63,575 bases of DNA, filler included, from Stramenopiles sp. TOSAG23-2 (GCA_900128395.1; 16 parts of 16 records of this genome joined end to end with filler, not necessarily neighbours in it), one strand, 5' to 3'. Numbered from the whole stretch's first letter, positions 4,865-59,593 are shown. Notes: generated by a model not told the origin, from the letters alone. Made by a program: numbers and translations.

Positions 4865-7433
4865 ATGGCATCCATAGCACGTAAATCAAGACGTGCAAAA
4901 CGACGTGAAAAACGTAAAGCAGCAGCCAATAATAATAATGATGAAACAGGATCTGTCACATCTACTGTAACAAATGATTCAACAACAACCACCAATAACA
5001 ACAACAACAACAACAAGACAGAAGACAGTAATAACAATTTATCCCCATCTTCACAAACAATTTTTAAAATATTAACAACAAATGGTACCGACCCAGATGT
5101 ATTACCTGAAGAAATATTAAATTATATTTCTTCTGCTGCTAGTGATAAATTAACATCAATTGATGATCTTGCATCTATTTTATCATCAATGGAAATTATA
5201 TCAACAACTGATAATGATGACGATGATGAAAATACTACAAAAATTGCAACAACTATCATCAATGCATTGAAACCAAAAGAAGATGATGGAAAAAAAGAAA
5301 AAATGGAAGATCATAAAAACAATCAATATAAAAATTTAGTACGTAATAAAGAATCTGCAGCATTAGCAATGTCTGCTTTATGGGGTATGAAAAAACTAAC
5401 TGTAAATGAAGGTATGAATGGTTGGGTACAAAATGGTGGTGCAACAATTGTAGATTGGTTAGCTAAAAATTCAAAATCAGGACGAAGACGTATACGTTTA
5501 GCAGCAAAGGAAGAAGAAAAGCGTAAGAAATTGTTAGATGAACATATTAAATATATTAAAATGTTACGACGAGCAGAAGCGGAAGCATATAAATCATTGC
5601 CATCTAAATTATTACCATCCTCATCTGCTAAACAAGATTTATTAATTGATGATTGTTCATTTAGTGCACCAGATGGTAAAATATTATGCGATAATGGACA
5701 AATACATTTAGTATATGGTAGAAAATATGGTTTGATCGGTAAAAATGGTGCTGGTAAAACGACATTATTACGTGCATTAGCCAAACGTATGTATATCATA
5801 TATCACATCACATATGTATATATCACATCACTTACCTATATATATATATATATATCGCATCTTTCACGTTTCATTGAAATAAATATATGACTAACATGTA
5901 TATATATATATACAAACATCGACGATCGTATTGTCACATACGGCTTCGCCTCCAATTGCCACTTTGATCTTATTGTCCATAGGCGATATTGATGGTGTTC
6001 CAGATGATTTAAGAATGGTACATGTATCACAAGAAATTGATGGTACTGATACCTCGGTATTACTATCCGTCATGTCATGTGATTATGAATTATTAGAAAC
6101 GAAAAAGGAGGAACAACGTTTATTAAAAGATCCAAATGCAGATCCAGATGAATTACAACAATGTATGGAAAAATTAGATTTATTAGAGGCTAGTACAGCT
6201 GAATCACGTGCAGTGAAAATATTATCTGGTTTAAATTTTTCAAAGGAAATGTTACATGTACCGACGAAACGTTTAAGTGGTGGTTGGAGACAACGTGTTG
6301 CATTAGCAAAAGGTTTATATTTAGAACCACAATTATTATTATTAGATGAACCGACGAATCATCTGGATTTAGAATCAGTGTTATGGTTGGAAAATTTTTT
6401 AATTGAATACGATAGTACATTAGTTATCGTTAGTCATGATCGTAATTTTTTAAATAATGTTTGTACGGATGTGATGCATTTAAATCGACAAAAGTTAAAA
6501 TATTATCGTGGTGATTATGAAAATTTTGTACAAGTAGTAGAGGAAGAGGAAAAACAACAAATGAAAAAATACGAAGCGCAACAGAAGAAACGTAAGCATA
6601 TGCAAGAATTTATTGATAAAAATCGATACAATGCAAGTAAAGCAAGTATGGCACAAAGTCGTATTAAAGCCATGGAGAAAATGGAGATTGTAGAAAATGT
6701 TCAAGTTGAAAATGGACTACGGTTTGATTTCCCAGATCCAGGTCCATTAGATGGACGATTTGTTACATTAACCGATGTGAATTTTAGATATTCAGAGAAA
6801 ACACCAATGTTATTTCAAGATGTTGATTTTAATTTATCAACAGAATCCCGTATTGGTTTAGTTGGTCCAAATGGCGTTGGTAAAAGTACATTATTAAATG
6901 TTATTTATGGATATAGTAAACCAAGTCGAGGTATTGTGAAACAAAATCCACGTTTACGCATCGGTGTTTTTTCCCAACATCATACCGAATCATTAGATTT
7001 ACGTTTAACACCATTGGAACAAATGCGCGTTGCATATGATGGATTTGCAGGTGCAAAAGGGGAGGAAAAAGCACGTTCGCAATTAAGTCGTTTTGGTGTT
7101 ACCTCACGTATGTGTACAAGACCAATTGTTACATTAAGTGGTGGACAAAAATCACGTTTAGTATTAGCCATGGTATTATGGAAAAAACCACATTTATTAA
7201 TATTAGATGAACCGACAAATCATTTAGATATGGAAACGATTTATGCATTAGCAGAAGCAGTGAATTCATTTAATGGTGGTGTCATCGTTGTTAGTCATGA
7301 TCAACATTTTATGAATATGTGTTTAAAAGAAACATATGAGATACGTAATAAAGCATTGGTGAAATTGGCAGGTGGTTTAGAAGATTATAAAAAGAAAGTG
7401 TTGAAGGATATGATGGGGAAGAAGAAACGGTGA
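4865..7433 (+). CDS. ABC-F family ATPase (GCN20/ABCF3-like), exons 4865-5786 and 5983-7433, 790 aa
   Basis: Two NBDs (GKNGAGKT/LSGGW/LLLLDEPTNHLD and GPNGVGKS/LSGGQ/LILDEPTNHLD) with no TM domain. Intron GTATGT...CATAG (5787-5982) restores the frame. Confidence 0.93.
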
Positions 7434-8003
7434 GAGGAGGAAAAAGTGGGGGGGGGGGCTCTTCAAAATAAAACTCAATATTCCTGCTTCATTCCATTAT
7501 TATAAAAAAATACAAAATATTTTACACGCAATGAAACTTGTAGAAATCTACAAGCTAAAGTGATCAAAACCGCGGCTTTTTGCCACAACCGTGCACTTCA
7601 AGATCTTTATCCGGATAGTTACCGGTTGTTGTTCACAACAGGGTCTTTCACTTCGACAACCTCACCGTTTTCGAATGAACCCGGCGTCCAGCCAGCTCAA
7701 CGAGTGCGCATGGAAGGATAGAAACCTACTTGTGCTTTGTGAAGTATTAGTTTGCAGAGGTGCATTAAGAGCTTTACTAATAGTGTATGCATAGGATAGC
7801 ATATTATTCTCTGCGATTGAGTATTGAGCATATATCATATATATTACTCAACAGGTAATGCAACATTTAAACAAGGAAGTAGAGGGACAGTTATTGAGGC
7901 GCCNNNNNNNNNNNNNNNNNNNNNNNNNNNNNNNNNNNNNNNNNNNNTTAATTAATTAANNNNNNNNNNNNNNNNNNNNNNNNNNNNNNNNNNNNNNNNN
8001 NNN

Positions 8004-8700
8004 TCCATCAATAATACTTTGTATTCCACTATCATCAGTAATATTATTATTAGCTAGGTGCAATACCTCTAATGTATTGTTTGTTTTTAATACATCAATA
8101 ATACTTTGTACATCAGTAATATTATTATTATGTAGGTACAAGTACTCTAATGTATTGTTTGTTTTTAATCCTTTACCAATACTTTGTACATCAGTAATAT
8201 TATTATTATTTAGGTACAATCCCTCTAATGTATTGTTTGTTATTAATCCTTCACCAATACTTTGTACATTAGTAATATTATTATTACCTAGGTACAATCT
8301 CGTTAATGTATTGTTTGTTTTTAATCCTTCGCCAATACTTTGTACATCAGTAATATTATTATTATCTAGGGACAATTCATTTAATGTATTGTTTGTTTTT
8401 AATCCTTCACCAATTCTTTGTACATCAGTAATATTATTATTATCTAGGTACAATATTGTTAATGTATTGTTTGTTTTTAATCCTTCACCAATACTTTGTA
8501 CATCAGTAATATTATTATTATCTAGGTCCAATGTCTTTAATGTATTGTTTGCTTTCAATGCTTCACCAATACTTTGTACATCAGTAATATTATTATTAGT
8601 TAGGTCCAATCTCGTCAATGTATTATTTGTTTTTAACAATTCACCAATGGCTAATGCATCGTCATCTGTGAGATTCTTTCCATACAAATCCACTTCCATC
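8004..8700 (-). repeat. Coding tandem repeat: 78-bp/26-aa LRR units with near-identical scaffolds
   Basis: LxxLxLxNNNITDVQSIGEGLKTNNT x8 plus a divergent first unit. Confidence 0.95.
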
Positions 8701-11700
8701 TTCCCATCAAATTCTTTTTCCCATTTCATATATGCAGCACTTTTTTTTATGTCTACTGCGTTGGTATTATCATCTTCTTGGTCATTTGTATCATTTAACT
8801 CAATATTAATATCCTCTAAAGAATTAAACAGTGATTGCTTCGGTTGACCTAATTTGCTTATTGTACTTTCTTGAATATTATTTGTATTAATAAAAGCTTG
8901 TTTAACCTTCTTAACTTCAATTGACACTTCGGTTCCTGCCATCGGCTGCTTCTCTTCGTTAAGTTTTCTTCGTTTTGTTTTAGGTTGCCTCGTGGTATCA
9001 TTAGTATCTAAATCCATTTGATGATTTTCCGGGTTTTCAGTTAAATTACTATTTGATGTTGGTTTTTCAATTTTTGTCATTAATTTACTTTCCTTCTCAT
9101 AAAGCTTACTTCTGTTTGACTCTTCCACTTGACTTTTATCCTCCAGTACTGTATCTGTCCATATACTATGATAAAGTCCATATTGTACAGGCTTATCCAC
9201 GATGCCAACAAATAATTTTGCACGTGTAATAGCACGATATACAGATGCCTTTTTCTTATCAAGTAAAGCCTCTTCGTCATCATCTTTTATTGTTTCATCA
9301 AAACCAACAACAATTGCAGCATCGTATTCTAGACCATCTTGATTTGAAATTGTATCAACAACTATTTGTACTGAGGTATGTTGTAATTGTGGAAACATAC
9401 CAAACATTTTTTCTGCTTTGAAAAAATCGAAATTTATTTCAAGATTCATCTTGTCAATTTCATCTCGCAATTTCAACGTAAACTCATCTACAGGTAATGG
9501 AGGATGATTATCTGGTAATATAATCACAACACGGCCACGGCTTATTCGGAACCATCCATGATCTTTATTCTTTTTCGTTACAAAAGTGTCTTTAATATGT
9601 TCTAAAGCATCTATAGTTCTCATAATATATCGCATTATTGTATCATTATTATTATTATTGTCATCTTTGTCAGAATCAATAATTAAAAATGGTTCAATGG
9701 GACTTCCAAATTTCTGATTTTTGCATGATGGTTGTTCTTCATTTTTTCTAAATAAATGTGATAACAAGGTAATTGCTTGGGTTGAACGTACCACATCACG
9801 AAGTTCAATTAAAAAAACGACTTCACCACTTTCCAACGCATCGTTTATTGCGTTATTAATCTTAAGTATTGCAGATGGTCCCTGGTTATCATCAGAAAGT
9901 ATTACACGCTGTCTTGCGTCTTCAAAATGCCTTAATATTCGTCTCCATATCTTATCATTTTTACGAACAATATGATGGGCTTCATCAATTACGACTAAAT
10001 TATAATTTTGAACTGTCTCCTCCTTATCAATTTCAACAAATTTCAAATACGCATTACCTTGTTCATTTAGCTGAAGTATAGCTTTGTGTGGCTTTCCATT
10101 GGTCTTTCTTGTACAAAAATGTATACGATTTAAAATCGATTCTGGATCATGTTGTACTGCGTCATTATTATTATCATTCTCTTCTCCCTTGGTCTCACCA
10201 TCACCACGTTTACCTTTCCTACTTAACATACGTATTAATATCCATCTTGCAAAAAAATAAGCAAATCCATTTTGTGTGCATGCAAAAAGTATGTTTGCAT
10301 TTGGATTTTCTATTAACATTTTACATATAAAATGTAAACCTAAAAATGTTTTACCCGTACCAGCAAATCCTTTTATATGAACACATCCAATGTTACGTTT
10401 TGCATTTATTGCATTTTCGTATTTCTGGTATTTCCCTTCTTGTTCAATGGTTAAATCATCTTGTGCTAATAATTTTGCTTCACAAATTTTCCGAAGCTTA
10501 ATTATCATCTCAGATGGAATGTTTTCAACTGATATATCTTCAACTGATGTATTTTCAACTGATATATCTTCCAATTTCATTTTTTGTTTAATGCGCTCTA
10601 TCTCCATCCCATCATTTACGTTCAGAGCAGAAATAACTTTTACAAAGTTTTCTTCTTTCTCAATAAATTTGTAAAACAATGTTAAAAACGGTATACCATC
10701 CTTTGATGCTCTCAGTAAGCACAATTCTTGTACACACTCTTTGTATAATTCTTTGATTTTTTCATCGTTTTCTTTGAAAATTGGATCCCCGCCTTGATTT
10801 TCTTTTGTTAAATCAAAGACTTTATCACAAATTGTCAGATTCTTTTCTTTCCATAATCCGCGTTTTTTTACTTTTAAACTTACAGCTATTGTACTAAATT
10901 CAAAAGCATCTTTGGGTGGTTTCTGATTTACAAAAAGTTGATAATAAAAATTTTCACTTAAAATTGGTGCAGCAACAGATGAAACTTTTTTTTTAAAACC
11001 ATATGAATATAAACCACTTTGATCAATAAAATATTGAACAACGTTAGAATTGTCAGTAGCTGTTTCACATGCACTCATCGTAAACAACGTGATGCCACTT
11101 TTGAGTAACATGTTGACGAATAGTCTATAATCAATCCGTTCCAATGCCATGGGATTACTTTTAGTATCAATAAATGTAAGACCTAAAGGAACATCCCCTG
11201 TTGTAAATTTTCCATGACCAATAAAGTGCACAAATCTATACATATTTGTTTGTATTTTGTTTTTAAAATCATCTACTGTACCTTGAAATATTTCGGCATC
11301 AGTTATGTCTTTTATTTTCTTGGCTTCTGCCATGCTCTCTTTAAAATCTACAGCGGCAAAAATTATCCCCTTTTCACCATTATATGACATATTGGCAATA
11401 CGATGTTTCTTAATTTTACTGTTTTCTAATGCTTCAAGACGTGCCTCATGATTTTTAATATCCTTAACATTTTGTTGGACTTGATGCATTAATGTTTTAA
11501 TAGTTTCATTGATACTTTTACATTCGTTCCTAAATTCGGATATGTGTTTTTGTTGCTCTTCTGTGCATTTCAGAAATATATTTTGCTGTTCTTTCAATTC
11601 TTTTATACATTGAAGATTTAATGTATTTAAAGCATTATTGCTTACAATTAAATGTCTACGATTTTGCTTCCGATTCTTCATTTCCTCCTCGGAATTTATT

Positions 11701-11902
11701 CGACTACCATCATTAAATGTTACTAATGGTATTCCTATTTTTTGGCCCAATTTCCATAATTTATCTGCCATTGGTCCGGCATCCATATCACCACTTAACT
11801 TGCCATCCTCATCCAGCCATTCATAAATGTGTAATTCTAATTCCTCCGTCACTGATTTTAATATATTATTAGGACATGTTGAAATAATGTTTTTAAAATT
11901 TG
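8004..11902 (-). CDS. Multidomain protein, open at both contig ends: coiled coil, CHAT (caspase-like) protease, SF1 (Schlafen/UvrD-like) helicase, RI-like LRR array
   Basis: VHFIGHG and MSACET dyad motifs. GFAGTGKT, VVIDEAHH, DGLEYD and YRAITRA helicase motifs. At least 9 LRRs. The frame stays open upstream of the track's GTG to the contig edge. Confidence 0.85.
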
Positions 11903-12002
11903 NNNNNNNNNNNNNNNNNNNNNNNNNNNNNNNNNNNNNNNNNNNNTTAATTAATTAANNNNNNNNNNNNNNNNNNNNNNNNNNNNNNNNNNNNNNNNNN
12001 NN

Positions 12003-19238: not shown

Positions 19239-19994
19239 AAGACGGGAAATATAGAGTGTACAATCGAGGTTCTACTTCCTATACAAATATAAAAGATGAT
19301 AACAAAAGAAAAGTTGGTTTTACTGACGAATGTACTTGATCTGTATACAATATGTATAAAAAAGTTATAAAATTAAAAGTTTAACAAGCCAGCAAGTATT
19401 GTATGATGAGTATAAGTATATTAATATTTAGTAAAAAGCAGCTTATTATTGAAATTATATAGCTTAACAACAACTTCTTCTATAAATCTACCGTTCATTT
19501 TTGGATTTTTGGATAATTTAATGCTTTGTTCTAAAAATAACAATTGTAATGCTATTTCCGTATTAAATATTATTTTTCAGAACTACTCAGCATAACCTCT
19601 GTTCTGTTAATTTAAATTCCTTAGAGCCAATAGTGACGTATAATATATTGTACAACTGTACTGTACTGTATATTGTGCTATTGTATATATAAATGTAGTA
19701 AAAATATAATACAGAAGAAGTAAATGCATTAACAACCATTTCTTCATCAAATATTATTATTGTACCGTGGATGTAGAATAAATTTTCTATTCTTTTTTAT
19801 TTATTTTTTAAAAAAAGGTAATAGAATTCCATAATGAATAATTTAATCATAATAATATACGTCATCGTAATAGCTTTTTATTCTGGGAATAAACNNNNNN
19901 NNNNNNNNNNNNNNNNNNNNNNNNNNNNNNNNNNNNNNTTAATTAATTAANNNNNNNNNNNNNNNNNNNNNNNNNNNNNNNNNNNNNNNNNNNN

Positions 19995-22900
19995 TTACTA
20001 AATATGGATCACCATCATTTGTACATTTAGTTACAGTTGGATTATTACCTTCGTATCCGGAAGCACATTTCAGTCCACTAACACTAAATGAACTCATTTT
20101 TAAATTTTCATTTACACTTGAATAATCATACCCAGTACTTGTTGTACTTCTTGTGCAAAATACTGGTGACCATTTGCATACACATTCAACCTGACCCCAT
20201 CCACATCTATTTGAGCGCCCGCCATTATTAAAATAATAACCTGCGTAGTTTCTTGGCAAGTCGGCTCGATTTATGCATCCTTTAGGGTATAGATCACTCA
20301 ACCAACTACTAATACTACTCCCCCGATATGGTACACGATTAAATCCTGCTGCTGCTTTACACTCATTTTCAGTTGTCATGTAATTTTTGCAATCACCACT
20401 AGTTCGTATTGTTGATAGGGGTGCAGATTTACACAGACATTGATTTGATTGTGAGCAACTTCCAGTATTTGACATATGACCATTAAATTTTAATCTGTCG
20501 TTTTCATAATAACATCCTTTTGGATCCAAATCATCACCGTCTTGATTGTCATTTTCCGCCGTTTTATCATTTAAACTTAACTGTGTAGCAGCAAGTTCAC
20601 AATCGGATATAGATGTAATACTATGATTACATTTTGAACTTGTTTGCAATTTATATAGTGCGCATCCACTTACTAAATATGGATCACCATCATTTGTACA
20701 TTTAGTTACAGTTGGATTATTACCATCATATCCTGATGCACATTGTAAATTTGTAACATCAAATGCATTACCATCCATTCGTAAACTTGTTTCAATAATT
20801 TGTGAAAAATCATATCCAATACTATTACTTGGACTTGGACGTACACAATATGGAATTTTAGTACATCCACTAACGGTATATGCACCACCATCAGTTGTAC
20901 ATTTAGTTACAGTTGGATTACCATCATATCCTGATGCACATTGTAAATTTGTAACATCGAAGTAATTACCATCAAGTCTTAAACTTGTTTCTACAATTGC
21001 TGAAAAATCGTATGGGTTATCAGTTGGTAAACCGCATATAACACCTACATCTTCATTATGGTTACAATTTTCAACCCCCCATCCGCGATGATCACAGTCA
21101 AATATATTATCTTCGTTTCCATTACAATTTACATCATCTAAATATATACTTCCAGTACCTTGCCCGTAAAATGCTCCCGTTCTTGCTGTTGCAGACTCAT
21201 ATCCCAGATCTAAACATTTACATACAACTTTCGCATCGACTGTTGCAAAATTATCATCACAAACAGTTCCCCATGGTGATGAATCTGAGTTTGTTTGCCT
21301 CACTTCAACTCTACCGGAGTGTGCATTTGGTCCATTTACAAGACGTACTTTGCCGCCACAATAGCACAATGGGGGGGCACAATCCCCAATACCTCCTGTA
21401 CTTGGACGTACACAATATGGAATTTTAGTACATCCACTTACTAAATATGGTTGGCCATCAGTTGTACATTTAGTTACAGTTGGATTATTTCCTTCATATC
21501 CTGATGCACATTGTAAATTTGTAACATCGAAGTTATTACCATCCATTCGTAAACTTGTTTCAGTAATTTGTGAAAAATCATATCCAATACTATTACTTGT
21601 ACTTGGACGCACACAATATAAATTGGTGGTGGTAGTAGTGCCCTCATTAAAGTCCAATGTCCACATATCATCAAATTTACTCGAATCATCAGTTCCACCA
21701 AGCATTATCATTTTCATTTCATCAATTGTCGCAACAGATGAATGGCGATACCGACCACTTGGTATATTCGATGCTTGGGTTTTTCCAACAGCAGTTACCT
21801 CTTCCCAACGATTCGTAGTTAAATCTAAGAACCATGCATCATTTAAATAACCACCACCGTAACCACCAAATACAAGCATTTTGCCATGCAACAAGGTGGC
21901 AGAGTGGCCGTAACGTCCAACCGGTGCTGTCCCCGACGTTGATATTTCTGTCCAGATGAATGTAGACAAATCCAAAGACCAAACATCGTTTTTTTGACCA
22001 GCGCCATTTCCACCAAACATAATCATATTTCCATTTAACAAGCAAGACGTATGACCACTGCGAACACTAGGTTTTGTGGCGGAATTTGTTTTTTGAACCC
22101 AGGCATAAGTTGTTAAATCCAAAGTCCATAAATCATTTTTACTATTCTGACCATCGTATCCCCCAAACATAATCATTTTCCCATTCCACTGTATGGAGGT
22201 GTGTTCATCACGTTTATATGGTTTTGTTCCCGAAGTTGGCACCGATGTCCAATCCTCCGAGCCCCATTCATATGGAATTGTTATTGTCATCATCCACACA
22301 TCATTCTTAATTGGAGAATACAATCCTTCTCGACCACCGAACACAAACATTTTATTATTGAATACCACGGATGAGTGACCATATCGCCTTGGTGAATAGT
22401 CACCGCTTAATTGCATCCATGTTTTAGTGCTTACATCTAATATCCACATGTCACTTCTCACACTACTACAACTTGTGTGTGAATCACATATCATCTTACC
22501 TTTACCACCATGTATCATCATTTTGCCTTCCGATACCATGCAAGAAGAATGAAGAAAACGAGCAGCCGGCTTATTCATCCCTGTTGTCAATAATGGTTCC
22601 CACTTTGATCTTGTTGATAATGAAACCGGAGGCATTGTACATCCGCTAATGGTATATGGTTCGAACGCCTTCGTACATTTAATTGCAATTGGATTATTAC
22701 CATGATATTCAGATGCACATTGTAAATTTGTAACATCAAAATTATCTATTCGTAAATTAGTTTCAATAATTTGTGAAAAATCATATCCAATACTATCACT
22801 TGGATTTGGACGTACACAATATAAATTGGTGGAAGTTGTGCTCTTGTTAAAATTCAATGCCCACATATCATTAAATTTACTCGAATCATCAGTTCCACCA

Positions 22901-23886
22901 AGCATTATCATTTTCATTTCATCAATTGTCGCAACAGATGAATGGCGATACCGACCACTTGGTATATTCGATGCTTGGGTTTTTCCAACAGCAGTTACCT
23001 CTTCCCAACGATTCGTAGTTAAATCTAAGAACCATGCATCATTTAAATAACCACCACCGTAACCACCAAATACAAGCATTTTGCCATGCAACAAGGTGGC
23101 AGAGTGGCCGTAACGTCCAACCGGTGCTGTCCCCGACGTTGATATTTCTGTCCAGATGAATGTAGACAAATCCAAAGACCAAACATCGTTTTTTTGACCA
23201 GCGCCATTTCCACCAAACATAATCATATTTCCATTTAACAAGCAAGACGTATGACCACTGCGAACACTAGGTTTTGTGGCGGAATTTGTTTTTTGAACCC
23301 AGGCATAAGTTGTTAAATCCAAAGTCCATAAATCATTTTTACTATTCTGACCATCGTATCCCCCAAACATAATCATTTTCCCATTCCACTGTATGGAGGT
23401 GTGTTCATCACGTTTATATGGTTTTGTTCCCGAAGTTGGCACCGATGTCCAATCCTCCGAGCCCCATTCATATGGAATTGTTATTGTCATCATCCACACA
23501 TCATTTTTAATTGGAGAATACAATCCTTCTCGACCACCGAACACAAACATTTTATTATTGAATACCACGGATGAGTGACCATATCGCCTTGGTGCCATGT
23601 CTCCTTTCATTTTTGTCCATGTTTTAGTGCTGACATCTAACATCCACGTATCTTCCCTCACTCTATTATTAATTGGAGCACCAAGAAACTCACCTCGACC
23701 ACCATGTATCACCATTTTACCTTCCGATACCATGGAAGAAGAATGAAGAAAACGACCATCCGGCTTATTTGTTCCTGTTGGTAATAATTGTTCCCACTTT
23801 GGTGTTGTTGCTAATGACACCGGGGTAAATGTACATCCACTTACTAAATATGGATCACCATCATTTGTACATTTAGTTACAGTTGG
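19995..23886 (-). CDS. Fragment of a very large modular, probably extracellular protein: two Kelch propellers, an SRCR domain and several Cys-rich repeats
   Basis: Kelch motifs (RxxHS...MFGG...NDxW) twice over. SRCR (VRLVNG...GRVEV...WGTVCDD...EDVGVIC) at about 21352-21033. Open at both contig ends. Confidence 0.9.
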
Positions 23887-25314: not shown

Positions 25315-26646
25315 TTAGCGATCTACTTCACCAAAAACAATATCTTGTGTACCAATAATAGTAACCACATCGGCAATCATATGACCACGTGACATCAAAT
25401 CCAAACCTTGTAAATGTGCAAATCCAGGTGCCCGTACATGGCATCGATATGGTCTATTTGTGCCGTTGGAAACTAAAAATACTCCAAATTCACCTTTTGG
25501 TGCTTCGATTACTGTGTACGTTTCATTTGGTGGAACGACAATACCTTCCGTATGCAATTTGAAATGATGAATCAATGATTCCATTGATTGCTTCATCTCG
25601 CCACGTGCAGGCACAGTAACTTTGTTATCGTCTGATTTCACAGGGCCATTTGGCATTTGATTCAAACATTGATGTACAATCCTTAAACTTTGTCGCATCT
25701 CCTCTAAGCGCACTAAGTAACGATCGTAACAATCGCCATTCGTTCCTACTGGAATTTCAAACTCACATTCATCATATACTTCATATGATTCATTTTTACG
25801 TAAATCCCAACATACACCACTGCCACGTAAAAGGACACCACTGAAACCCCATGCCATCGCATCTTCCACGGATACAACACCGATATCAACTAAACGTTGT
25901 TTCCAGATACGATTATCTGTTAACAACTCCTCGATTTCATCGATACGACAAGCAAATTGTTCAATAAATGTATATACATCTTCCAATAAACCTTTTGGTA
26001 TGTCAGCACTAACACCACCTGGGCGGAAATATGCAGCATGCATACGTGCACCGGAGACACGTTCATAAAATTCCATTAACTTCTCGCGTTCCTCGAAACT
26101 CCAAAGCATCGGTGTCATAGCACCAACATCCATAGCATGGCATCCAACTGCTAATAAATGATTTAAAATACGTGTCAACTCACTAAACAATACACGAATA
26201 TATTGTGCACGACGTGGTACGTCTAATTGACATAATTTTTCTACTGCTAAACAATATGCATGTTCTTGACACATCATCGATACATAGTCCAATCGATCAA
26301 AATATGGCAAAGCTTGTTGGTATGATTTGTATTCAATCAGTTTCTCCGTGCCACGATGTAATAATCCAATATGTGGATCAGCTCTTTCAACAACTTCACC
26401 ATCAAGTTCTAATACTAACCTTAATACACCATGAGCAGCTGGATGCTGTGGTCCAAAGTTCATAGTGAAATTATTAATTTTTTTCGCCAACTGACTTTTT
26501 TGCAAAGCCATATGCCTCACTTGTTGCTGATTGTTGGCATTATTGTCATTGTTAAATGGCGTAAGAATCACATTGTTAGATGAACGTAAATTACGTCTAA
26601 GTAAATGATTACTCGTTCTTAAAGTATTTGATATACTACGTAACAT
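25315..26646 (-). CDS. nad7: NADH:ubiquinone oxidoreductase 49-kDa subunit, nuclear-encoded with a ~45-aa mitochondrial presequence
   Basis: [27 protein letters not shown] and DIVFGEVDR*. The N-terminal extension is R/S/L-rich and ends QVRH-M. Confidence 0.97.
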
Positions 26647-40371: not shown

Positions 40372-40471
40372 NNNNNNNNNNNNNNNNNNNNNNNNNNNNN
40401 NNNNNNNNNNNNNNNNNNNNNNNNNNNNNNNNNNNNNNNNNNNNNACCTAATGAATTTTCATTTGGAAAGA

Positions 40472-57059: not shown

Positions 57060-58465
57060 TCAAGTTAACCCCAATACATTCATAGTAGCATCTATATCGT
57101 CTAAAGCACCCATTGTCCTAGCTTGTCCTAATCCATCGTCGCCGTGATTATCATGTATATCAGTTGTTTTATCAACAATTACTTCATCTTCATCTAATCC
57201 AAAATCAACTTTTTTAACCATTTCTTTCGTTTCTTTAATCCATTTTGATTTCTTATAATGTTCAATATCTAAAGCACCCATTGTCCTAGCTTGTCCTAAT
57301 CCATCGTCGCCGTGATTATCATGTATATCAGTTGTTTTATCAACAATTACTTCATCTTCATCTAATCCAAAATCAACTTTTTTAACCATTTCTTTCGTTT
57401 CTTTAATCCATTTTGATTTCTTATAATGTTCAATATATGCACTTGTTAAATGTATTAGCTTTTCGAATTTTTCATGAAATTTTAAATCATGACCAACAAA
57501 TTTTCGATGTGCTATTTGTGCAAATGCTTCTAAAAACTCCCCAAAATCCATTAATGTAAATCCACCTGCATCAGCTGCCAGTGCTTTTTTATTGACTTTA
57601 GAATGTATTCTTGAATGCATTTGAGCAGCGATAAATGATTCTTGTCCTTTTTGTATGGTAATATTTTCATCTATGAAATTTGTGCATTGCATAAATTGCA
57701 TCCAATCTTCCATACTCAACTGTGCTTTTAAACCACGATGTACTGGTTTAATAGCACGTTGCGCAGAGTCGCTGCGTTTTGGTCCATCCCTTCTTTTATA
57801 TTTTGCAAAGGCGAAAAATGCTATTTGCAACATCTGAATATTGCCGTTACTAAGTAAAAGATTTTGTATATCATCCGTCATTAAATGTTGTAATGGCTCT
57901 TCCCATTCTTTCATGATTTTATCAGCAACTGGTCCTAAATTTGTGTGAATAAAATAATTCATTTGTTCATATGGATCATTATCAAATTCACCTTTATATC
58001 GTACAAGACCAAGACGAACGACTGCTTCAAGAAATTCATACATAACACATTCATTTTTTCCACCATCATCTTCGACTTTGATCATCTCTTGTTTTCCATC
58101 CTTGCCTGTTCTTTTTGTTACGTTCGCTGCTATAAACAACCGGCCTTGGGTGGATTGATCGCATTTTTTAGTGGTAACATTACATGCTTTGCACATCATC
58201 AAAAATTCACTAGCACCCATTGTGAAACTATTTCCTGGCAACATGAATGCAAAATGTCTGAACAGATTTTCCAATCGTAAGTAATTTTTTGCCAATAACA
58301 CGCGTAATTTTCCTACCGTGGTTGGATCTTTGATTACATTTCCTATTTTTGATCTTTCCATATCGCTATCAAGCAGCGCTTTTACAGTCTCTTGTATATT
58401 TCCACCACGCCTTAGTCCAAACACTATCCTTTTCTTTTTTACAACTTTTTTTACTTTTTTTTTCA
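57060..58465 (-). CDS. C-terminal part of an EF-hand-like repeat protein, with an exact in-frame 168-bp duplication (57100-57436)
   Basis: MYEFLEAVVRLG and MDFGEFLEAFAQIA motifs. A 56-aa block is repeated twice. Confidence 0.7.
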
Positions 58466-59593
58466 CTGTACATATGCACCTCCGTGGACGTCCACTTTGA
58501 CCCATACGTGATCCCCTGTTTTTAATGTTTGATTAATATGATCGTATGATGTAAAATATACAGATTCGAATAAATCTTCTGGCTCTGTTAACAACTTTTT
58601 TTGTAGACTTTCGTTCCATTCTTTACTATATTGATTATTCCGTGTCGATGAATGGCCCATAGTGCCTTCTGCTGTGGACGGTCTGTTAGGAACTCTATTT
58701 TTTTTCATGCCATATTGATTTAACCTTGTATTGTTTGGGACAGTTCTATTTAGTCTATTAATTCGAGTCGAACCTTCACTTGTATGTGGACGTGTTCCGT
58801 AAGTCACAGTTTGTGATAATTGATTCAATTTATTACGTCCTTGTTCTACATTATCTTGCTGCCCTTTATTGCTGTAACGCCTTCGTCTTCTATTTAAACG
58901 TCGTTCTTCTGCAATTGTAGGACGATTATGTGATGATACTTTTTCTTGATTATTCATTTTAATGATTTGGACGTTCTGCTTTTCTTCTTCTTCTTCTGCT
59001 TCCTCCTCTTCTATCGATTTATCACTTAATTTCTGATCAAAAATCAATTGTAATGCTTTGTTGCCTTCGCTTTTATGTCGAGGGAATTTCATTCTAATTG
59101 GACTTAAATTGCCACGTTGTAATAAACCACCAACAGATGTTAAACGTTGCAGTGCTTTTCCATTTTGATACAGTCCATGCAAAGTATATCGTTCCATTTT
59201 ACCTTTGTGATTACTTGTACGTTGCAATGTATTTTTTGGAACGTACTTTAATGTTCTATCTTTACCAGCTGTTACAGGACGCTTGCCACGTACACCCGTT
59301 ACACCTAATGGGCGCAAACCAGAATGAAACGTCTCTCGTTGTCTGATCCTTCCCGAAGGAAATTCAGCTGAGTATCTACGTGCAGCGCATAACGCTAACC
59401 ACCTCATTGTTTGATTGCCTTTACCACAACATATGGGAAAAGAACATTCGTTTATATGTACAAATATTGTTATTTGTGGTTCTAAGTGTCTTTTCTTTTT
59501 CTTTTTCTTTTTTTTTCCTTTGCTAATCATGTTGTGCTTTTGTGGTATATTTACAGATTGTTTATGTACAATGATAGATCGATCCTGGTACAT
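58463..59593 (-). CDS. N-terminal part of a protein with a ubiquitin/PB1-like start; may be the same gene as 57060-58465
   Basis: IFVHINECSFPICCGKGNQTMRWLALCAARRY...GDHVWVKVD. The frame changes at ~58465 with no credible intron. Confidence 0.6.
   Translation of the reverse strand: MYQDRSIIVHKQSVNIPQKHNMISKGKKKKKKKKRHLEPQITIFVHINECSFPICCGKGNQTMRWLALCAARRYSAEFPSGRIRQRETFHSGLRPLGVTGVRGKRPVTAGKDRTLKYVPKNTLQRTSNHKGKMERYTLHGLYQNGKALQRLTSVGGLLQRGNLSPIRMKFPRHKSEGNKALQLIFDQKLSDKSIEEEEAEEEEEKQNVQIIKMNNQEKVSSHNRPTIAEERRLNRRRRRYSNKGQQDNVEQGRNKLNQLSQTVTYGTRPHTSEGSTRINRLNRTVPNNTRLNQYGMKKNRVPNRPSTAEGTMGHSSTRNNQYSKEWNESLQKKLLTEPEDLFESVYFTSYDHINQTLKTGDHVWVKVDVHGGAYVQ

What the first reader, a model, noticed from the sequence alone, without database searches (positions are those of the whole stretch)
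8004..11902. NLR-like receptor candidate: caspase-like CHAT protease + Schlafen/UvrD-type helicase + LRR sensor in one protein
Seen: one uninterrupted frame of about 1,300 aa. It holds a coiled coil, a CHAT-type dyad (VHFIGHG, His codon 11216-11214; MSACET, Cys codon 11069-11067, followed by FYYQL...AF), SF1 helicase motifs (GFAGTGKT ~10370, VVIDEAHH ~9990, DGLEYD ~9335, YRAITRA ~9235) and C-terminal LRRs. Established: effector-NTPase-repeat is the NLR/STAND layout; CHAT proteases act as cell-death or defence effectors (e.g. gasdermin activation in bacteria); Schlafen helicases are antiviral. Inference: this is an innate-immune or cell-death receptor in a protist in which an SF1 helicase takes the place of NACHT/NB-ARC. 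I do not know of this architecture being described.
Basis: partly seen in the sequence, partly recalled or inferred. Interest (0 to 1): 0.88.

Follow-up and report, generated by a model that had tools for sequence, protein, structure and literature searches.

The report
Protist CHAT protease–helicase–LRR protein
A gene fragment from a marine protist encodes a caspase-like protease, a helicase-type motor and a leucine-rich-repeat array in one protein, a layout like that of animal and plant immune receptors but built around a different motor.

Summary
Window 8004-11902 is one stand-alone 3,899-bp contig between artificial N/TTAATTAATTAA linkers. One minus-strand frame fills it (1,299 codons, P about 1e-53) and is cut at both ends. 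aa 161-345 is a genuine CHAT domain. It passes Pfam's cut-off, and a profile of the family's modules recovers 41 PF12770 proteins among 46 hits. A confident model (pLDDT 79.9) matches SAVED-CHAT at Z 18.5, and His229 and Cys278 are in place. aa 471-905 is an SF1 UvrD/Schlafen-group-3-like NTPase that keeps 11 of 11 family-invariant residues. It is not a STAND NTPase, and there is no Schlafen nuclease. aa 1065-1299 holds 8 near-identical 26-residue LRRs, and the contig ends inside them. Two other contigs (82% and about 50-70% identical) show the same order, one with two CHAT modules. Marine DNA and RNA contigs tile the junctions. The same helicase core occurs in cryptophyte, picozoan, choanoflagellate and dinoflagellate proteins. 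There it is fused to a caspase, TIR, U-box, ART or kinase domain upstream and to LRR, WD40, RCC1, Ank or Arm repeats downstream. The NLR-like reading is therefore plausible, but the function is untested. Eight literature searches found no description. Interest 0.74; new variant of a known kind.

The parts
8004..11900 (-). One open frame of 1,299 codons (P0001) that fills the whole contig. It is cut at both ends.
   Evidence: The GTG 'start' at 11852 listed is a by-product of the ORF tool. P0002 continues about 262 aa further upstream of the equivalent point.
11619..11900 (-). N-terminal region aa 1-94, with no known domain. It is shared with P0002 and absent from L002.
   Evidence: 84% identical to P0002 and 22% (not homologous) to L002. 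No Pfam family covers it apart from the start of the CHAT envelope.
11421..11618 (-). Long predicted helix aa 95-160, possibly a coiled coil.
   Evidence: Helix with block-mean pLDDT 84-86 in the single-sequence model and helix 2-15 of the second model. It was not tested with a coiled-coil predictor.
10866..11420 (-). CHAT domain aa 161-345, a caspase-hemoglobinase-fold cysteine protease.
   Evidence: Pfam CHAT 26.3 bits against a cut-off of 24. BLASTP to L002's strong CHAT module gives E 3e-9. A profile search returned 41 PF12770 proteins among 46 hits. The model has pLDDT 79.9. Foldseek's top hits are SAVED-CHAT at E 4e-8, and VIA-align gives Z 18.5.
11214..11216 (-). Codon of His229, the predicted catalytic His in HFIGHG, at the end of a beta strand.
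   Evidence: Nearly invariant column H75 of alignment A6. Strand E69-73 followed by GHG in the model.
11067..11069 (-). Codon of Cys278, the predicted catalytic Cys in MSACET, after a beta strand.
   Evidence: Nearly invariant column C124 of A6. Strand E118-121 followed by SAC in the model. Poly-A RNA contig X17 record 14 covers 10971-11220 with 0 differences.
10491..10865 (-). Linker aa 346-470. It contains a short 15-nt tandem repeat (10524-10571).
   Evidence: 66-75% identical to the relatives.
9186..10490 (-). SF1 helicase-type NTPase core aa 471-905, UvrD/Schlafen-group-3-like.
   Evidence: ResIII 36.6 bits. The family HMM scores 255 bits over aa 472-1029. 11 of 11 invariant and 24 of 30 near-invariant family residues are kept. 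Atlas neighbours are all UvrD_C/UvrD_C_2/Viral_helicase1/SLFN-g3 clusters at 0.96-0.97. The fold itself was not modelled.
10347..10370 (-). Walker A, GFAGTGKT (Lys517).
9972..9995 (-). Walker B, VVIDEAHH (Asp639, Glu640, His642).
9219..9338 (-). C-terminal helicase motifs: DGLEYD (Gly856, Glu858) and YRAITRA (Tyr888, Thr892, Arg893, Ala894).
   Evidence: The family profile matches PcrA 537-612 here at E 8.7e-4.
8709..9185 (-). Low-complexity linker aa 906-1064, with a basic KRRK patch (aa 976-979, nt 8964-8975) that looks like a nuclear localisation signal.
   Evidence: The NLS reading is from recall and was not tested.
8004..8708 (-). LRR array aa 1065-1299: one degenerate unit and then 8 near-identical 26-residue units. 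The contig ends inside the array.
   Evidence: Pfam LRR_4 64.7 bits, plus LRR_8 and LRR_6. TRF reports a 78-nt period, 7.9 copies, 88% matches, 8033-8648. The units are listed. The best PDB sequence matches are Roco, ribonuclease-inhibitor and NLRP3 LRRs.
7904..8003 (.). Artificial linker (44 N + TTAATTAATTAA + 44 N), not biological sequence.
11903..12002 (.). Artificial linker (44 N + TTAATTAATTAA + 44 N), not biological sequence.

Best explanation
The contig encodes a fragment (at least 1,299 aa) of a large intracellular multidomain protein of an AT-rich, intron-poor marine protist. From N to C it reads: a variable N-terminal region, a long helix, a CHAT cysteine protease with an intact His229/Cys278 dyad, a linker, an SF1 (UvrD/Schlafen-group-3-like) helicase-type NTPase with all family-invariant residues, a low-complexity linker, and at least 8 ribonuclease-inhibitor-type LRRs.

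I read it as a signal-gated protease of the NLR/Apaf-1 logic in which an SF1 helicase module, not a STAND NTPase, is the central switch. In this reading a trigger is recognised by the LRR array, by the helicase module, or by both. The trigger could be a foreign or stress-derived protein or nucleic acid. NTP binding or hydrolysis by the helicase module then drives a conformational change or self-assembly. This releases or brings together the CHAT domains, which cleave downstream substrates and lead to defence or regulated cell death.

Shown here: the domains, their order, the intact catalytic residues, presence in RNA libraries, and the modular family. Inferred: the trigger, the coupling, the substrates and the biological outcome.
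For: Architecture:
- The domains and their order are shown.
- The same order is seen on two independent contigs from other assemblies. L001/P0002 is 82% identical. L002 has a 70% identical helicase and a 50% identical CHAT module.
- Contigs from other DNA and RNA runs tile the junctions. For helicase to LRR these are X3 record 26 (8774-9374) and X2 record 18 (8620-8961). For CHAT to helicase they are X17 record 13, X2 records 23 and 24, and X3 record 30.

CHAT is genuine and looks active:
- Pfam scores 26.3 bits against a cut-off of 24. L002 scores 61.7 bits, E 1e-16, in two stretches.
- Our segment aligns to L002 module 1 at E 3e-9 with His and Cys in register.
- The profile search returned 46 hits at E<=10, 41 with PF12770. 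At E<=1e-3 there are 20 hits, 16 with PF12770.
- The model has pLDDT 79.9.
- The best structural matches are SAVED-CHAT (E 4e-8; Z 18.5, rmsd 2.6, 177 aligned). Csx29/Craspase, MALT1, metacaspase, caspases, gingipain and separase follow.

The NTPase looks competent: 11 of 11 invariant and 24 of 30 near-invariant family residues are kept.

Modularity typical of conflict systems: 14 of the 24 helicase relatives read singly carry extra Pfam domains.
- P0039: Peptidase_C14, helicase, WD40 (Hemiselmis andersenii).
- P0050 (Picozoa) and P0061: TIR, helicase.
- P0045: U-box, helicase.
- P0072: kinase, ART, helicase, PH (Bicosta minor).
- P0048: helicase, LRR. P0049: helicase, RCC1. P0040 and P0007: helicase with LRR and kinase.
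- Four more distant relatives have a CHAT-like module upstream by my own profile, and one of them (P0140) ends in WD40.
- Close relatives differ in their N-termini. L002 has a second CHAT module, and its upstream ORF is unrelated to the N-terminus of P0002.

Precedents:
- CHAT proteases are effectors in Craspase (PMC9729208, abstract in the search listing) and in SAVED-CHAT (PDB 8tl0, title only).
- ssDNA binding to the helicase domain of SLFN11 activates its N-terminal nuclease (PMC13056530, Discussion passage).
Against: - There is no functional data of any kind.
- There is no genomic context, because the contig is isolated.
- The protein is incomplete at both ends.
- The LRR units are near-identical (88% at nucleotide level). 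This fits recent expansion or homogenisation better than a diversified recognition surface.
- LRR identity to P0002 (71 of 89, 80%) is no lower than for the other domains, so there is no sign of faster LRR divergence. The data are thin: 146 columns are gaps.
- In P0001 alone the Pfam CHAT score is marginal.
- The helicase fold was not modelled.
- P0001 itself has no PF09848 hit at E<=1.
- PADLOC finds nothing.
- 10 of 24 relatives have no extra Pfam domain. Several partners (PH, SH3, zf-TAZ, WWE, kinase) are general signalling modules, so the family could equally be a signalling scaffold.
- Presence in RNA libraries does not prove transcription, as itself warns.
Confidence: 0.45

Rival explanations
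1. SLFN11/RIG-I-type nucleic-acid sensor. In this reading the SF1 helicase module is itself the receptor, for example for viral or damaged DNA or RNA. It directly licenses the N-terminal CHAT protease. The LRRs serve only for autoinhibition, partner binding or localisation, and there is no NLR-like ligand sensing by the repeats.
For: - All helicase motifs are intact.
- The nearest solved SF1 relative of the N-terminal lobe by sequence profile is SLFN11 (E 2.4e-5). MDA5 and RIG-I are also hit.
- P0002, L002 and 14 of 43 relatives touch PF09848.
- In SLFN11, ssDNA binding to the helicase domain activates the N-terminal effector (PMC13056530, passage).
- The near-identical LRR units look little like a diversified sensor.
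- A basic KRRK patch in the linker may direct the protein to the nucleus (this reading is from recall).
Against: - Nucleic-acid binding was not tested.
- The PF09848 matches sit at or below the cut-off (24.6, 23.5; none for P0001).
- Downstream repeats of five different kinds recur in the family. That pattern is typical of sensor modules in NLR-like proteins.
Confidence: 0.25
2. A non-immune regulatory or signalling protein. In this reading it is a large scaffold in which a helicase-type NTPase, a processing protease and LRRs act in ordinary cell biology, such as signalling, chromatin or RNA metabolism, or the cell cycle. It would compare with LRRK/Roco-like multidomain proteins or with separase-type proteolysis.
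For: - Partners in the family include kinase, PH, SH3, zf-TAZ, WWE, Arm and RCC1.
- 10 of 24 relatives carry no extra domain.
- Caspase-fold relatives in the fold search include the housekeeping enzymes separase, GPI transamidase and Raptor.
- No defence-system model matches.
Against: - The closest structural relatives of the protease are defence proteases (SAVED-CHAT, Csx29) by a wide margin: Z 18.5, against 12.8 for DdvA and 12.2 or less for the rest.
- TIR, caspase, U-box and ART upstream modules recur on the same core.
- N-terminal modules differ between close relatives.
- Only three close relatives were found in 5.8 billion proteins, so this is not a conserved housekeeping orthologue.
Confidence: 0.2
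3. The gene belongs to a giant virus or another mobile element that travels with the protist, not to the protist nucleus. It would then act in virus-host or virus-virus conflict.
For: - The contig is AT-rich, has no introns and carries only this gene.
- The top atlas cluster for the CHAT segment is mostly viral (92% viruses among 12 members with a known phylum).
- The contig's origin cannot be tied to the others in the window.
Against: - Composition and poly-Asn tracts match the plainly nuclear genes on the other contigs of the window.
- The viral atlas clusters are short phage proteins (Uroviricota), not giant-virus proteins.
- Named relatives of the helicase come from protist transcriptomes and single-cell genomes.
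- Pieces are present in poly-A RNA libraries.
Confidence: 0.05
4. An artefact: a chimeric assembly of unrelated fragments, or a decaying pseudogene.
For: - The assemblies are highly fragmented.
- Both relatives carry a frame break. L002 has one in a run of 7 G. L001 has a 1-nt slip inside the LRR array.
Against: - The frame of 1,299 codons is open, with P about 1e-53.
- Three independent contigs show the same domain order.
- Junctions are tiled by contigs from other DNA and RNA runs.
- Catalytic residues of both enzymes are intact.
Confidence: 0.03

Closest known systems
NLR / Apaf-1-type STAND receptors (animal NLRs, plant NLRs, fungal NLRs, bacterial Avs and bNACHT)
   Same: The three-part layout is the same: effector, central P-loop NTPase, C-terminal repeat array. 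The LRRs are of the same ribonuclease-inhibitor class as NLRP3, which is matched at E 1.9e-9. Across the family, upstream effectors and downstream repeats are shuffled combinatorially. P0039, with a caspase domain, the helicase and WD40 repeats, mirrors the order of Apaf-1 or a metacaspase-NLR.
   Different: The NTPase is not NACHT/NB-ARC. It is a helicase-type SF1 module (two RecA-like lobes are expected but were not modelled) with motifs through YRAITRA. It is therefore analogous, not homologous. Oligomerisation is unknown.
SAVED-CHAT (PDB 8tl0) and TPR-CHAT/Csx29 of Craspase (prokaryotic defence proteases)
   Same: The protease domain is the closest structural match: Foldseek E 4e-8, VIA-align Z 18.5, rmsd 2.6 A over 177 residues. 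Csx29 chains also match. The His and Cys dyad is in the same motifs. In both, the protease is held under the control of a fused or bound sensor.
   Different: Those enzymes are switched by a cyclic-nucleotide-binding SAVED domain or by an RNA-guided Cas7-11 complex. Here the fused partners are an SF1 helicase and LRRs, in a eukaryote. Sequence identity is only 14-19%.
Group III Schlafens (SLFN11, SLFN5)
   Same: An N-terminal effector is fused to a C-terminal SF1 helicase-type domain. The family profile reaches SLFN11 (E 2.4e-5) and SLFN5 (E 0.0027). PF09848 is touched by P0002 (24.6 bits, cut-off 24) and by 14 of 43 relatives.
   Different: There is no Schlafen (AlbA_2-type) nuclease domain. 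The effector is a protease. LRRs follow the helicase. P0001 itself does not reach PF09848. By its defining domain it is not a Schlafen.
RIG-I-like receptors (RIG-I, MDA5)
   Same: They have a signalling or effector module upstream of a helicase that acts as a sensor-switch in innate immunity. There are weak profile matches to the first RecA lobe (E 3e-5 to 6e-3).
   Different: RLRs are SF2 helicases with CARDs and a C-terminal RNA-binding domain. They have no protease and no LRR.
Unnamed protist relatives of the same helicase family (for example P0039 of Hemiselmis andersenii, P0050 of Picozoa, P0072 of Bicosta minor, P0036 of Symbiodinium)
   Same: The helicase core is homologous: 227 proteins at E<=1e-3 and 84 at E<=1e-10. 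They share invariant residues and the same modular grammar.
   Different: They carry other effectors and repeats. Their cores also share about 180 profile positions upstream of the helicase that P0001 lacks. The family HMM matches P0001 from position 200, against position 16 for P0039 and P0050 and 77 for P0028. None is characterised.

Membership tests
CHAT domain (Pfam PF12770; clan CD, caspase-hemoglobinase fold) | Match to the family profile above the curated cut-off | tested here: met
   P0001 scores 26.3 bits against a cut-off of 24, E 6.4e-6. The relative L002 scores 61.7 bits, E 1e-16. The reverse profile search returns 41 PF12770 proteins among 46 hits.
CHAT domain (Pfam PF12770; clan CD, caspase-hemoglobinase fold) | Caspase-hemoglobinase fold | tested here: met
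   The model has pLDDT 79.9 and pTM 0.78. SAVED-CHAT is the top hit by Foldseek (E 4e-8) and by VIA-align (Z 18.5). Caspases, metacaspases, gingipain, legumain and separase follow. Caveat: the alignment that drove the model was made of CHAT proteins selected by sequence.
CHAT domain (Pfam PF12770; clan CD, caspase-hemoglobinase fold) | Catalytic His (before Gly) and Cys after adjacent beta strands | tested here: met
   His229 and Cys278 fall in the nearly invariant columns of A6 and at strand ends in the model. HFIGH was a seed word of the search, so its invariance among the hits is partly a selection effect.
CHAT domain (Pfam PF12770; clan CD, caspase-hemoglobinase fold) | Peptidase activity | not testable with these tools
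   This needs biochemistry.
Superfamily 1 helicases (UvrD/Rep-like; Pfam UvrD_C, UvrD_C_2, AAA_19 clan) | Walker A and Walker B motifs | tested here: met
   GFAGTGKT (Lys517) and VVIDEAHH (Asp639, Glu640).
Superfamily 1 helicases (UvrD/Rep-like; Pfam UvrD_C, UvrD_C_2, AAA_19 clan) | SF1-type motifs III to VI (a GD..Q-like motif, a ..RS motif, a G.E motif and a T-R-A motif) | tested here: met
   Ser669, Asp670, Gln673, Arg705, Gly856, Glu858, Thr892, Arg893 and Ala894 are kept. The family profile matches PcrA 537-612. Atlas neighbours are all UvrD_C, UvrD_C_2 or Viral_helicase1 clusters at 0.96-0.97. The SF1 consensus motifs themselves are from recall.
Superfamily 1 helicases (UvrD/Rep-like; Pfam UvrD_C, UvrD_C_2, AAA_19 clan) | Two RecA-like lobes in the SF1 arrangement | not tested
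Schlafen family (group III) | Schlafen core (AlbA_2-type nuclease) domain | tested here: not met
   Pfam lists no such domain in P0001, P0002 or L002 at E<=0.1.
Schlafen family (group III) | SLFN-g3_helicase (PF09848) match above the cut-off | tested here: inconclusive
   P0001 has no hit at E<=1. P0002 scores 24.6 bits against a cut-off of 24. L002 scores 23.5. 14 of 43 relatives match at E<=1e-4.
NLR / STAND receptors | STAND NTPase domain (NACHT or NB-ARC) | tested here: not met
   There is no NACHT or NB-ARC match. Only sub-threshold P-loop hits to nSTAND models appear, in relatives, at E 0.0004-0.45. The NTPase is an SF1 helicase module.
NLR / STAND receptors | Effector, NTPase and repeat array in that order on one polypeptide | tested here: met
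   The same order is seen in P0002 and L002.
NLR / STAND receptors | Ligand-induced, nucleotide-dependent oligomerisation | not testable with these tools
   This needs biochemistry or structural work.
Known prokaryotic anti-phage defence proteins (PADLOC-DB) | Match to any defence-system model | tested here: not met
   0 families at E<=1.

The most novel reading that the evidence does not exclude
This protein is one member of an unrecognised class of helicase-centred analogues of NLRs that is widespread among protists. In this class an SF1 UvrD/Schlafen-like helicase module takes the place of the STAND NTPase. It couples sensing by LRR, WD40, RCC1, Ank or Arm repeats, or by the helicase itself, to interchangeable death or immune effectors (CHAT, caspase, TIR, U-box, ART, kinase). 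That would be a third, independent invention of the effector-NTPase-repeat immune receptor, found in cryptophytes, picozoans, choanoflagellates, dinoflagellates and the window's own lineage.
Probability: 0.35. Interest if true: 0.88.

Novelty: new variant of a known kind. Interest (0 to 1): 0.74.

Why it matters
Intracellular immune receptors of animals, plants, fungi and bacteria are built on STAND NTPases. Almost nothing is known about how free-living protists, which face heavy pressure from viruses and parasites in the sea, sense infection and trigger cell death.

This protein and its relatives reuse the same effector-switch-repeat grammar around a helicase-type motor, with CHAT, caspase and TIR effectors. 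If they are a defence or death system, the receptor architecture would have arisen convergently on a different engine. That would also link the helicase-based sensors (RIG-I, Schlafens) and the NLRs in one design. It would give marine microbiology concrete candidate genes for regulated cell death during viral infection and bloom termination.

The family is directly testable. The catalytic residues of both enzymes are known (His229 and Cys278; Lys517 and Asp639), and several members come from cultured species such as Hemiselmis andersenii and Symbiodinium.

Tried and rejected
- The single-sequence AlphaFold model of aa 131-420 failed (mean pLDDT 38.7). It says nothing about the fold.
- phmmer of aa 150-400 against PDB sequences gave 0 hits at E<=10.
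- NCBIfam gave only a sub-threshold HelR tail match, E 0.098.
- PADLOC gave none.
- Complex prediction with two copies of the CHAT segment returned 'no answer' (score 0.00; the alignment was not used). This is evidence neither for nor against self-association.
- The genome search could not be used. No genome is held for this window, and L002's record is not held. The paralogue count in the source genome is therefore unknown.
- Searching papers for the WGS prefixes of L001 and L002 found nothing.
- Eight literature searches found no paper describing a CHAT-SF1 helicase-LRR protein or a helicase-centred NLR-like family.
  - The passages read in PMC7159879 and PMC8195603 treat helicases as effectors or as RLR-type sensors, not as the core switch.
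  - Their supplementary architecture tables could not be opened.
  - Burroughs and Aravind, J Bacteriol 2020 (PMC7685563) is not held. Prior description there cannot be excluded.
- Bins without read cover in single runs (for example 11254-11383 in X1, and several bins in X2 and X17) are not evidence of absence.
- The very high summed depth over the LRR bins (up to 19,409 in X1, against about 1-70 in the bins from 8784 on) probably reflects the same LRR unit in many genes or organisms. It is not a copy number.
- No other contig of the window carries a helicase or CHAT paralogue (249 frames searched).
- The 256-aa plus-strand ORF at 8077-8847 is the antisense shadow of the LRR repeat, not a gene.
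- The lineage hint is weak. The complex-I 49-kDa subunit on another contig is 78% identical to stramenopile nad7 proteins (Heterosigma, Chaetoceros), but most hits are unnamed.

Full report
WHAT THE STRETCH IS

The window is not a continuous genomic region. It consists of 16 small contigs, 3,902 down to 3,858 bp and sorted by length. They are joined by 15 identical artificial linkers of 44 N + TTAATTAATTAA + 44 N. The finding, 8004-11902, is exactly one of these contigs (3,899 bp). Nothing on either side of it is genomic context.

On the minus strand one frame (11900 to 8004) is open from the first to the last base, giving 1,299 residues (P0001). At this base composition the chance of no stop in 1,299 codons is about 1e-53. 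In 200 shuffles the longest open stretch averaged 96 codons and never exceeded 196. The frame is open at both ends, so the protein is a fragment. The GTG 'start' is a by-product of the ORF tool.

The other contigs carry ordinary eukaryotic genes with the same AT-rich, poly-Asn/Gln style. They include a single-exon complex-I 49-kDa subunit and an ABC-F gene in two ORFs about 40 bp apart. The source is therefore an intron-poor, AT-rich eukaryote. No genome is held for it.

THE PROTEASE MODULE

Pfam calls CHAT in P0001 just above its curated cut-off: 26.3 against 24 bits, E 6.4e-6, aa 84-322. On its own that would be thin. A single-sequence fold failed (pLDDT 38.7), and phmmer against PDB sequences found nothing. 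Four further lines settle it.

1. A relative on another contig (L002) has two such modules. It scores 61.7 bits (E 1e-16, two stretches) against Pfam CHAT. Its first module aligns to our segment at 29% identity, E 3e-9, with the His and Cys motifs in register.
2. A profile of the family's modules was searched against 5.8 billion proteins and returned 46 hits at E<=10. Of these, 41 already carry PF12770. At E<=1e-3 there are 20 hits, 16 with PF12770, and the other 4 are short fragments of the close family.
3. The protein-language-model neighbours of aa 150-400 are CHAT clusters (17 of 30 hits, top score 0.91). This is a lead only.
4. With a 49-row alignment of these sequences, AlphaFold2 gives a confident model of aa 155-400 (mean pLDDT 79.9, pTM 0.78).
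   - Foldseek ranks five chains of the activated SAVED-CHAT filament 8tl0 first (E 4e-8 to 2e-6). Csx29/TPR-CHAT of Craspase, MALT1, a C11 protease, caspase-9, gingipain and separase follow. In total 13 matches reach E<=1e-3.
   - The Foldseek-independent VIA-align search of 48,161 chains puts 8tl0_A at Z 18.5 (rmsd 2.6 A, 177 aligned). This is well above DdvA (12.8), metacaspase 4 (12.2), and gingipain, caspase-8 and legumain (about 11.8).

His229 (codon 11216-11214) and Cys278 (codon 11069-11067) lie in the two nearly invariant columns of the alignment and at the ends of adjacent strands in the model.

Two caveats apply. HFIGH was one of the seed words of the search, so its invariance among the hits is partly a selection effect. 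The model also depends on an alignment chosen by sequence similarity to CHAT.

THE NTPASE MODULE

aa 471-905 match ResIII (36.6 bits) and a large family of unnamed proteins. The search of 1.84 billion representatives returned 227 at E<=1e-3, 84 at E<=1e-10 and 8 at E<=1e-30. Nearly all match only this region.

An alignment of 43 long relatives has 11 invariant and 30 nearly invariant columns. P0001 keeps 11 of 11 and 24 of 30. The kept residues include:
- Gln487;
- Walker A Ala513, Gly514, Gly516, Lys517;
- Walker B Asp639, Glu640, His642;
- Ser669, Asp670, Gln673;
- Arg705;
- Gly856, Glu858;
- Tyr888, Thr892, Arg893, Ala894.

By my recall of the consensus motifs this is the SF1 pattern, not the SF2 pattern. 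Independent support:
- The atlas neighbours of aa 440-960 are all clusters carrying UvrD_C, UvrD_C_2, Viral_helicase1, AAA_19 or SLFN-g3_helicase, at 0.96-0.97 with 198-206 of 256 features shared.
- The family profile hits PcrA 537-612 with its C-terminal motifs (E 8.7e-4). With its N-terminal lobe it hits SLFN11 (E 2.4e-5) and SLFN5 (E 0.0027), beside SF2 proteins such as Brr2 (E 2.5e-10, N-terminal lobe only) and MDA5.
- PF09848 (Schlafen group 3 helicase) is reached by P0002 (24.6 bits, cut-off 24). L002 just misses it (23.5), 14 of 43 relatives match it, and P0001 itself does not.

No NACHT or NB-ARC is present and there is no Schlafen nuclease domain. I could not fold this module because both fold jobs went to CHAT.

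THE REPEATS

aa 1065-1299 hold one degenerate and 8 near-identical 26-residue LRRs. At DNA level the period is 78 nt, with 7.9 copies and 88% matches. Pfam calls LRR_4, LRR_8, LRR_1 and LRR_6. The best PDB sequence matches are a Roco LRR domain (5il7, E 2e-21), ribonuclease-inhibitor-type proteins and NLRP3 (E 1.9e-9).

The contig ends inside the array, which is probably why assembly stopped there. L002 is still open in its LRRs at the contig end. P0002's apparent stop is a 1-nt frame slip in the array 27 nt before the contig end, and the repeat continues in the +1 frame. None of the three contigs reaches the real C-terminus.

IS THE FUSION REAL?

Three contigs from three assemblies show the same order.
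- P0002 on L001 is 82% identical over the first 960 residues. It has about 262 more residues upstream of the point where our contig begins, starting with a poly-Asn tract.
- L002 has a 70% identical helicase and a 50% identical CHAT module.

The stretch, or parts of it, occurs in 20 of the 24 public runs listed. These come from 15 studies and are marine or seawater metagenomes except for three: one aquatic metagenome and two with no organism label. Six are RNA libraries, and one run holds half of the words or more.

I laid four runs. No single contig spans the gene, but pieces tile it: 29 of 30 bins in X1 and 26 of 30 in the RNA run X3.
- Helicase to LRR: X3 record 26 (8774-9374) and X2 record 18 (8620-8961) bridge the junction.
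- CHAT to helicase: X17 record 13 (10439-10647), X2 records 23 and 24 (10568-10951) and X3 record 30 (10915-11430) overlap across it.
- Dyad: poly-A RNA record X17-14 (10971-11220, 0 differences) covers both dyad codons.

The tool itself warns that presence in an RNA library does not prove transcription.

THE FAMILY AROUND THE HELICASE

This is the most informative result. I read 24 relatives one by one with Pfam. Of these, 14 carry further domains.

Domains upstream of the helicase:
- Peptidase_C14 caspase domain in P0039, which also ends in WD40 (from Hemiselmis andersenii);
- TIR in P0050 (Picozoa) and P0061;
- U-box in P0045;
- kinase plus ADP-ribosyltransferase in P0072 (the choanoflagellate Bicosta minor);
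- Peptidase_S74 in P0008;
- PH in P0025.

Domains downstream of the helicase:
- LRR in P0048, P0040 and P0007;
- WD40 in P0039 and P0140;
- RCC1 propeller in P0049;
- kinase in P0007, P0025 and P0040;
- WWE in P0036 (Symbiodinium);
- zf-TAZ in P0021;
- PH in P0072.

A tally over 43 relatives adds Ank (2), Arm (2) and SH3 (1), but it shows only 25 of 57 families.

I also searched 191 fetched relatives (139 of them 500 aa or longer) with an HMM built from the CHAT alignment. Four further long proteins have an N-terminal CHAT-like stretch that keeps the Cys motif: P0111, P0140, P0043 and P0055, at 33.6 to 19.6 bits. P0043 also keeps a His motif. Pfam does not call CHAT in these four at E<=1e-3, so I count them as probable only.

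Ten of the 24 relatives have no extra Pfam domain. Among the close relatives, the N-terminus is the variable part. L002 has an extra CHAT module and an upstream ORF of 570 aa with no Pfam match. That ORF shows no significant similarity to the N-terminus of P0002 (best E 0.18).

HOW IT MOST LIKELY WORKS

The anatomy is that of a gated protease: a caspase-fold effector, a competent NTPase and a repeat array on one chain. Known CHAT proteases of this structural type are defence effectors held under the control of a fused or bound sensor. Examples are SAVED-CHAT (PDB title) and Craspase (PMC9729208, abstract as shown in the search listing). In SLFN11, ssDNA binding to the SF1-type helicase domain activates the N-terminal nuclease (PMC13056530, Discussion passage).

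I therefore favour a sensor-switch-effector mechanism (0.45). In it, recognition by the LRRs and/or the helicase module leads to NTP-dependent rearrangement or assembly, which activates CHAT.

The main variant (0.25) is a SLFN11/RIG-I-type nucleic-acid sensor in which the LRRs only regulate. The near-identity of the LRR units favours this variant. So does the lack of any extra LRR divergence between P0001 and P0002: 80% identity over 89 aligned residues.

A non-immune signalling scaffold (0.20) cannot be excluded, because many partners are generic signalling domains and there are no functional data. Viral or mobile origin (0.05) and artefact (0.03) are unlikely.

COMPARISON WITH WHAT IS KNOWN, AND NOVELTY

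By layout this works like an NLR. By descent it is not one, because the defining STAND NTPase is absent. It is a member of the CHAT family and of the SF1 helicases. It is not a Schlafen, since it has no Schlafen nuclease and only a borderline PF09848 likeness.

Eight full-text searches found no description of this architecture or of a helicase-centred NLR-like family. The passages I read in the two Aravind-group papers on conflict systems mention helicases as effectors or as RLR-type sensors (PMC7159879, PMC8195603). Prior description therefore cannot be excluded.

I rate it a new variant of a known kind. The finding is interesting mainly because the pattern extends to a family spread over cryptophytes, picozoans, choanoflagellates and dinoflagellates.

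Noticed in passing
window 1-63575: The window is a concatenation of 16 unrelated contigs (3,902 to 3,858 bp, sorted by length). They are joined by 15 linkers of 44 N + TTAATTAATTAA + 44 N. Any finding in this window that relies on gene neighbourhood across a linker is invalid. One contig also has an internal 74-N gap at 40372-40445.
   Followed up: yes
L002 464-5687: This relative has two CHAT modules in tandem, separated by a helix, then the same helicase and LRRs. An upstream 570-aa ORF with no Pfam match runs into it through a frame break in a run of 7 G (2165-2171). The break is either a sequencing error or a real frameshift.
   Followed up: partly
L001 4800-4863: P0002's stop codon arises from a 1-nt frame slip inside the LRR array 27 nt before the contig end. 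The LRR unit continues in the +1 frame, so the annotated C-terminus of P0002 is not the real one.
   Followed up: partly
window 8004-8783 (LRR bins): Summed contig depth over the LRR units in marine metagenomes reaches the thousands (up to 19,409 in X1), against about 1-70 in the bins from 8784 on. This 26-residue LRR unit seems to be shared by many genes or organisms in these communities.
   Followed up: no
window 8964-8975 (aa 976-979): There is a basic patch, PKTKRRKL, in the linker between helicase and LRRs. It is also present in L002 (AKRRKL) and weaker in P0002. It resembles a monopartite nuclear localisation signal. This reading is from recall and was not tested.
   Followed up: no
P0013 and its cluster: This 1,556-aa relative carries two helicase modules in tandem (Walker B-like motifs at 217 and 1070). 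It is present as 11 near-identical sequences from several metagenome sources.
   Followed up: no
window 19939-23820 (-): This frame of about 1,290 aa is open at the contig end. Two long blocks of several hundred residues, with Kelch-like repeats by eye, are almost identical. They are followed by cysteine-rich modules, one of which looks like an SRCR domain by eye. It was not scanned with Pfam.
   Followed up: no
window 57060-58505 (-): This ORF has an exact tandem duplication of a block of about 55 residues at its C-terminus. It is either a recent duplication or an assembly artefact.
   Followed up: no
window 4865-7433 (+): An ABC-F type ATPase is split into two ORFs (4865-5890 and 5931-7433). 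This fits a short intron or a frame break between them. It is one of the few signs of introns in this window.
   Followed up: no
window 25315-26646 (-): This single-exon complex-I 49-kDa subunit has an N-terminal extension. It is 95% identical to an unnamed metagenome protein (94 member sequences) and 78% identical to mitochondrion-encoded nad7 of stramenopiles (Heterosigma, Chaetoceros). That is a weak hint to the lineage, and to a nuclear copy of a gene that is mitochondrial in those algae.
   Followed up: partly
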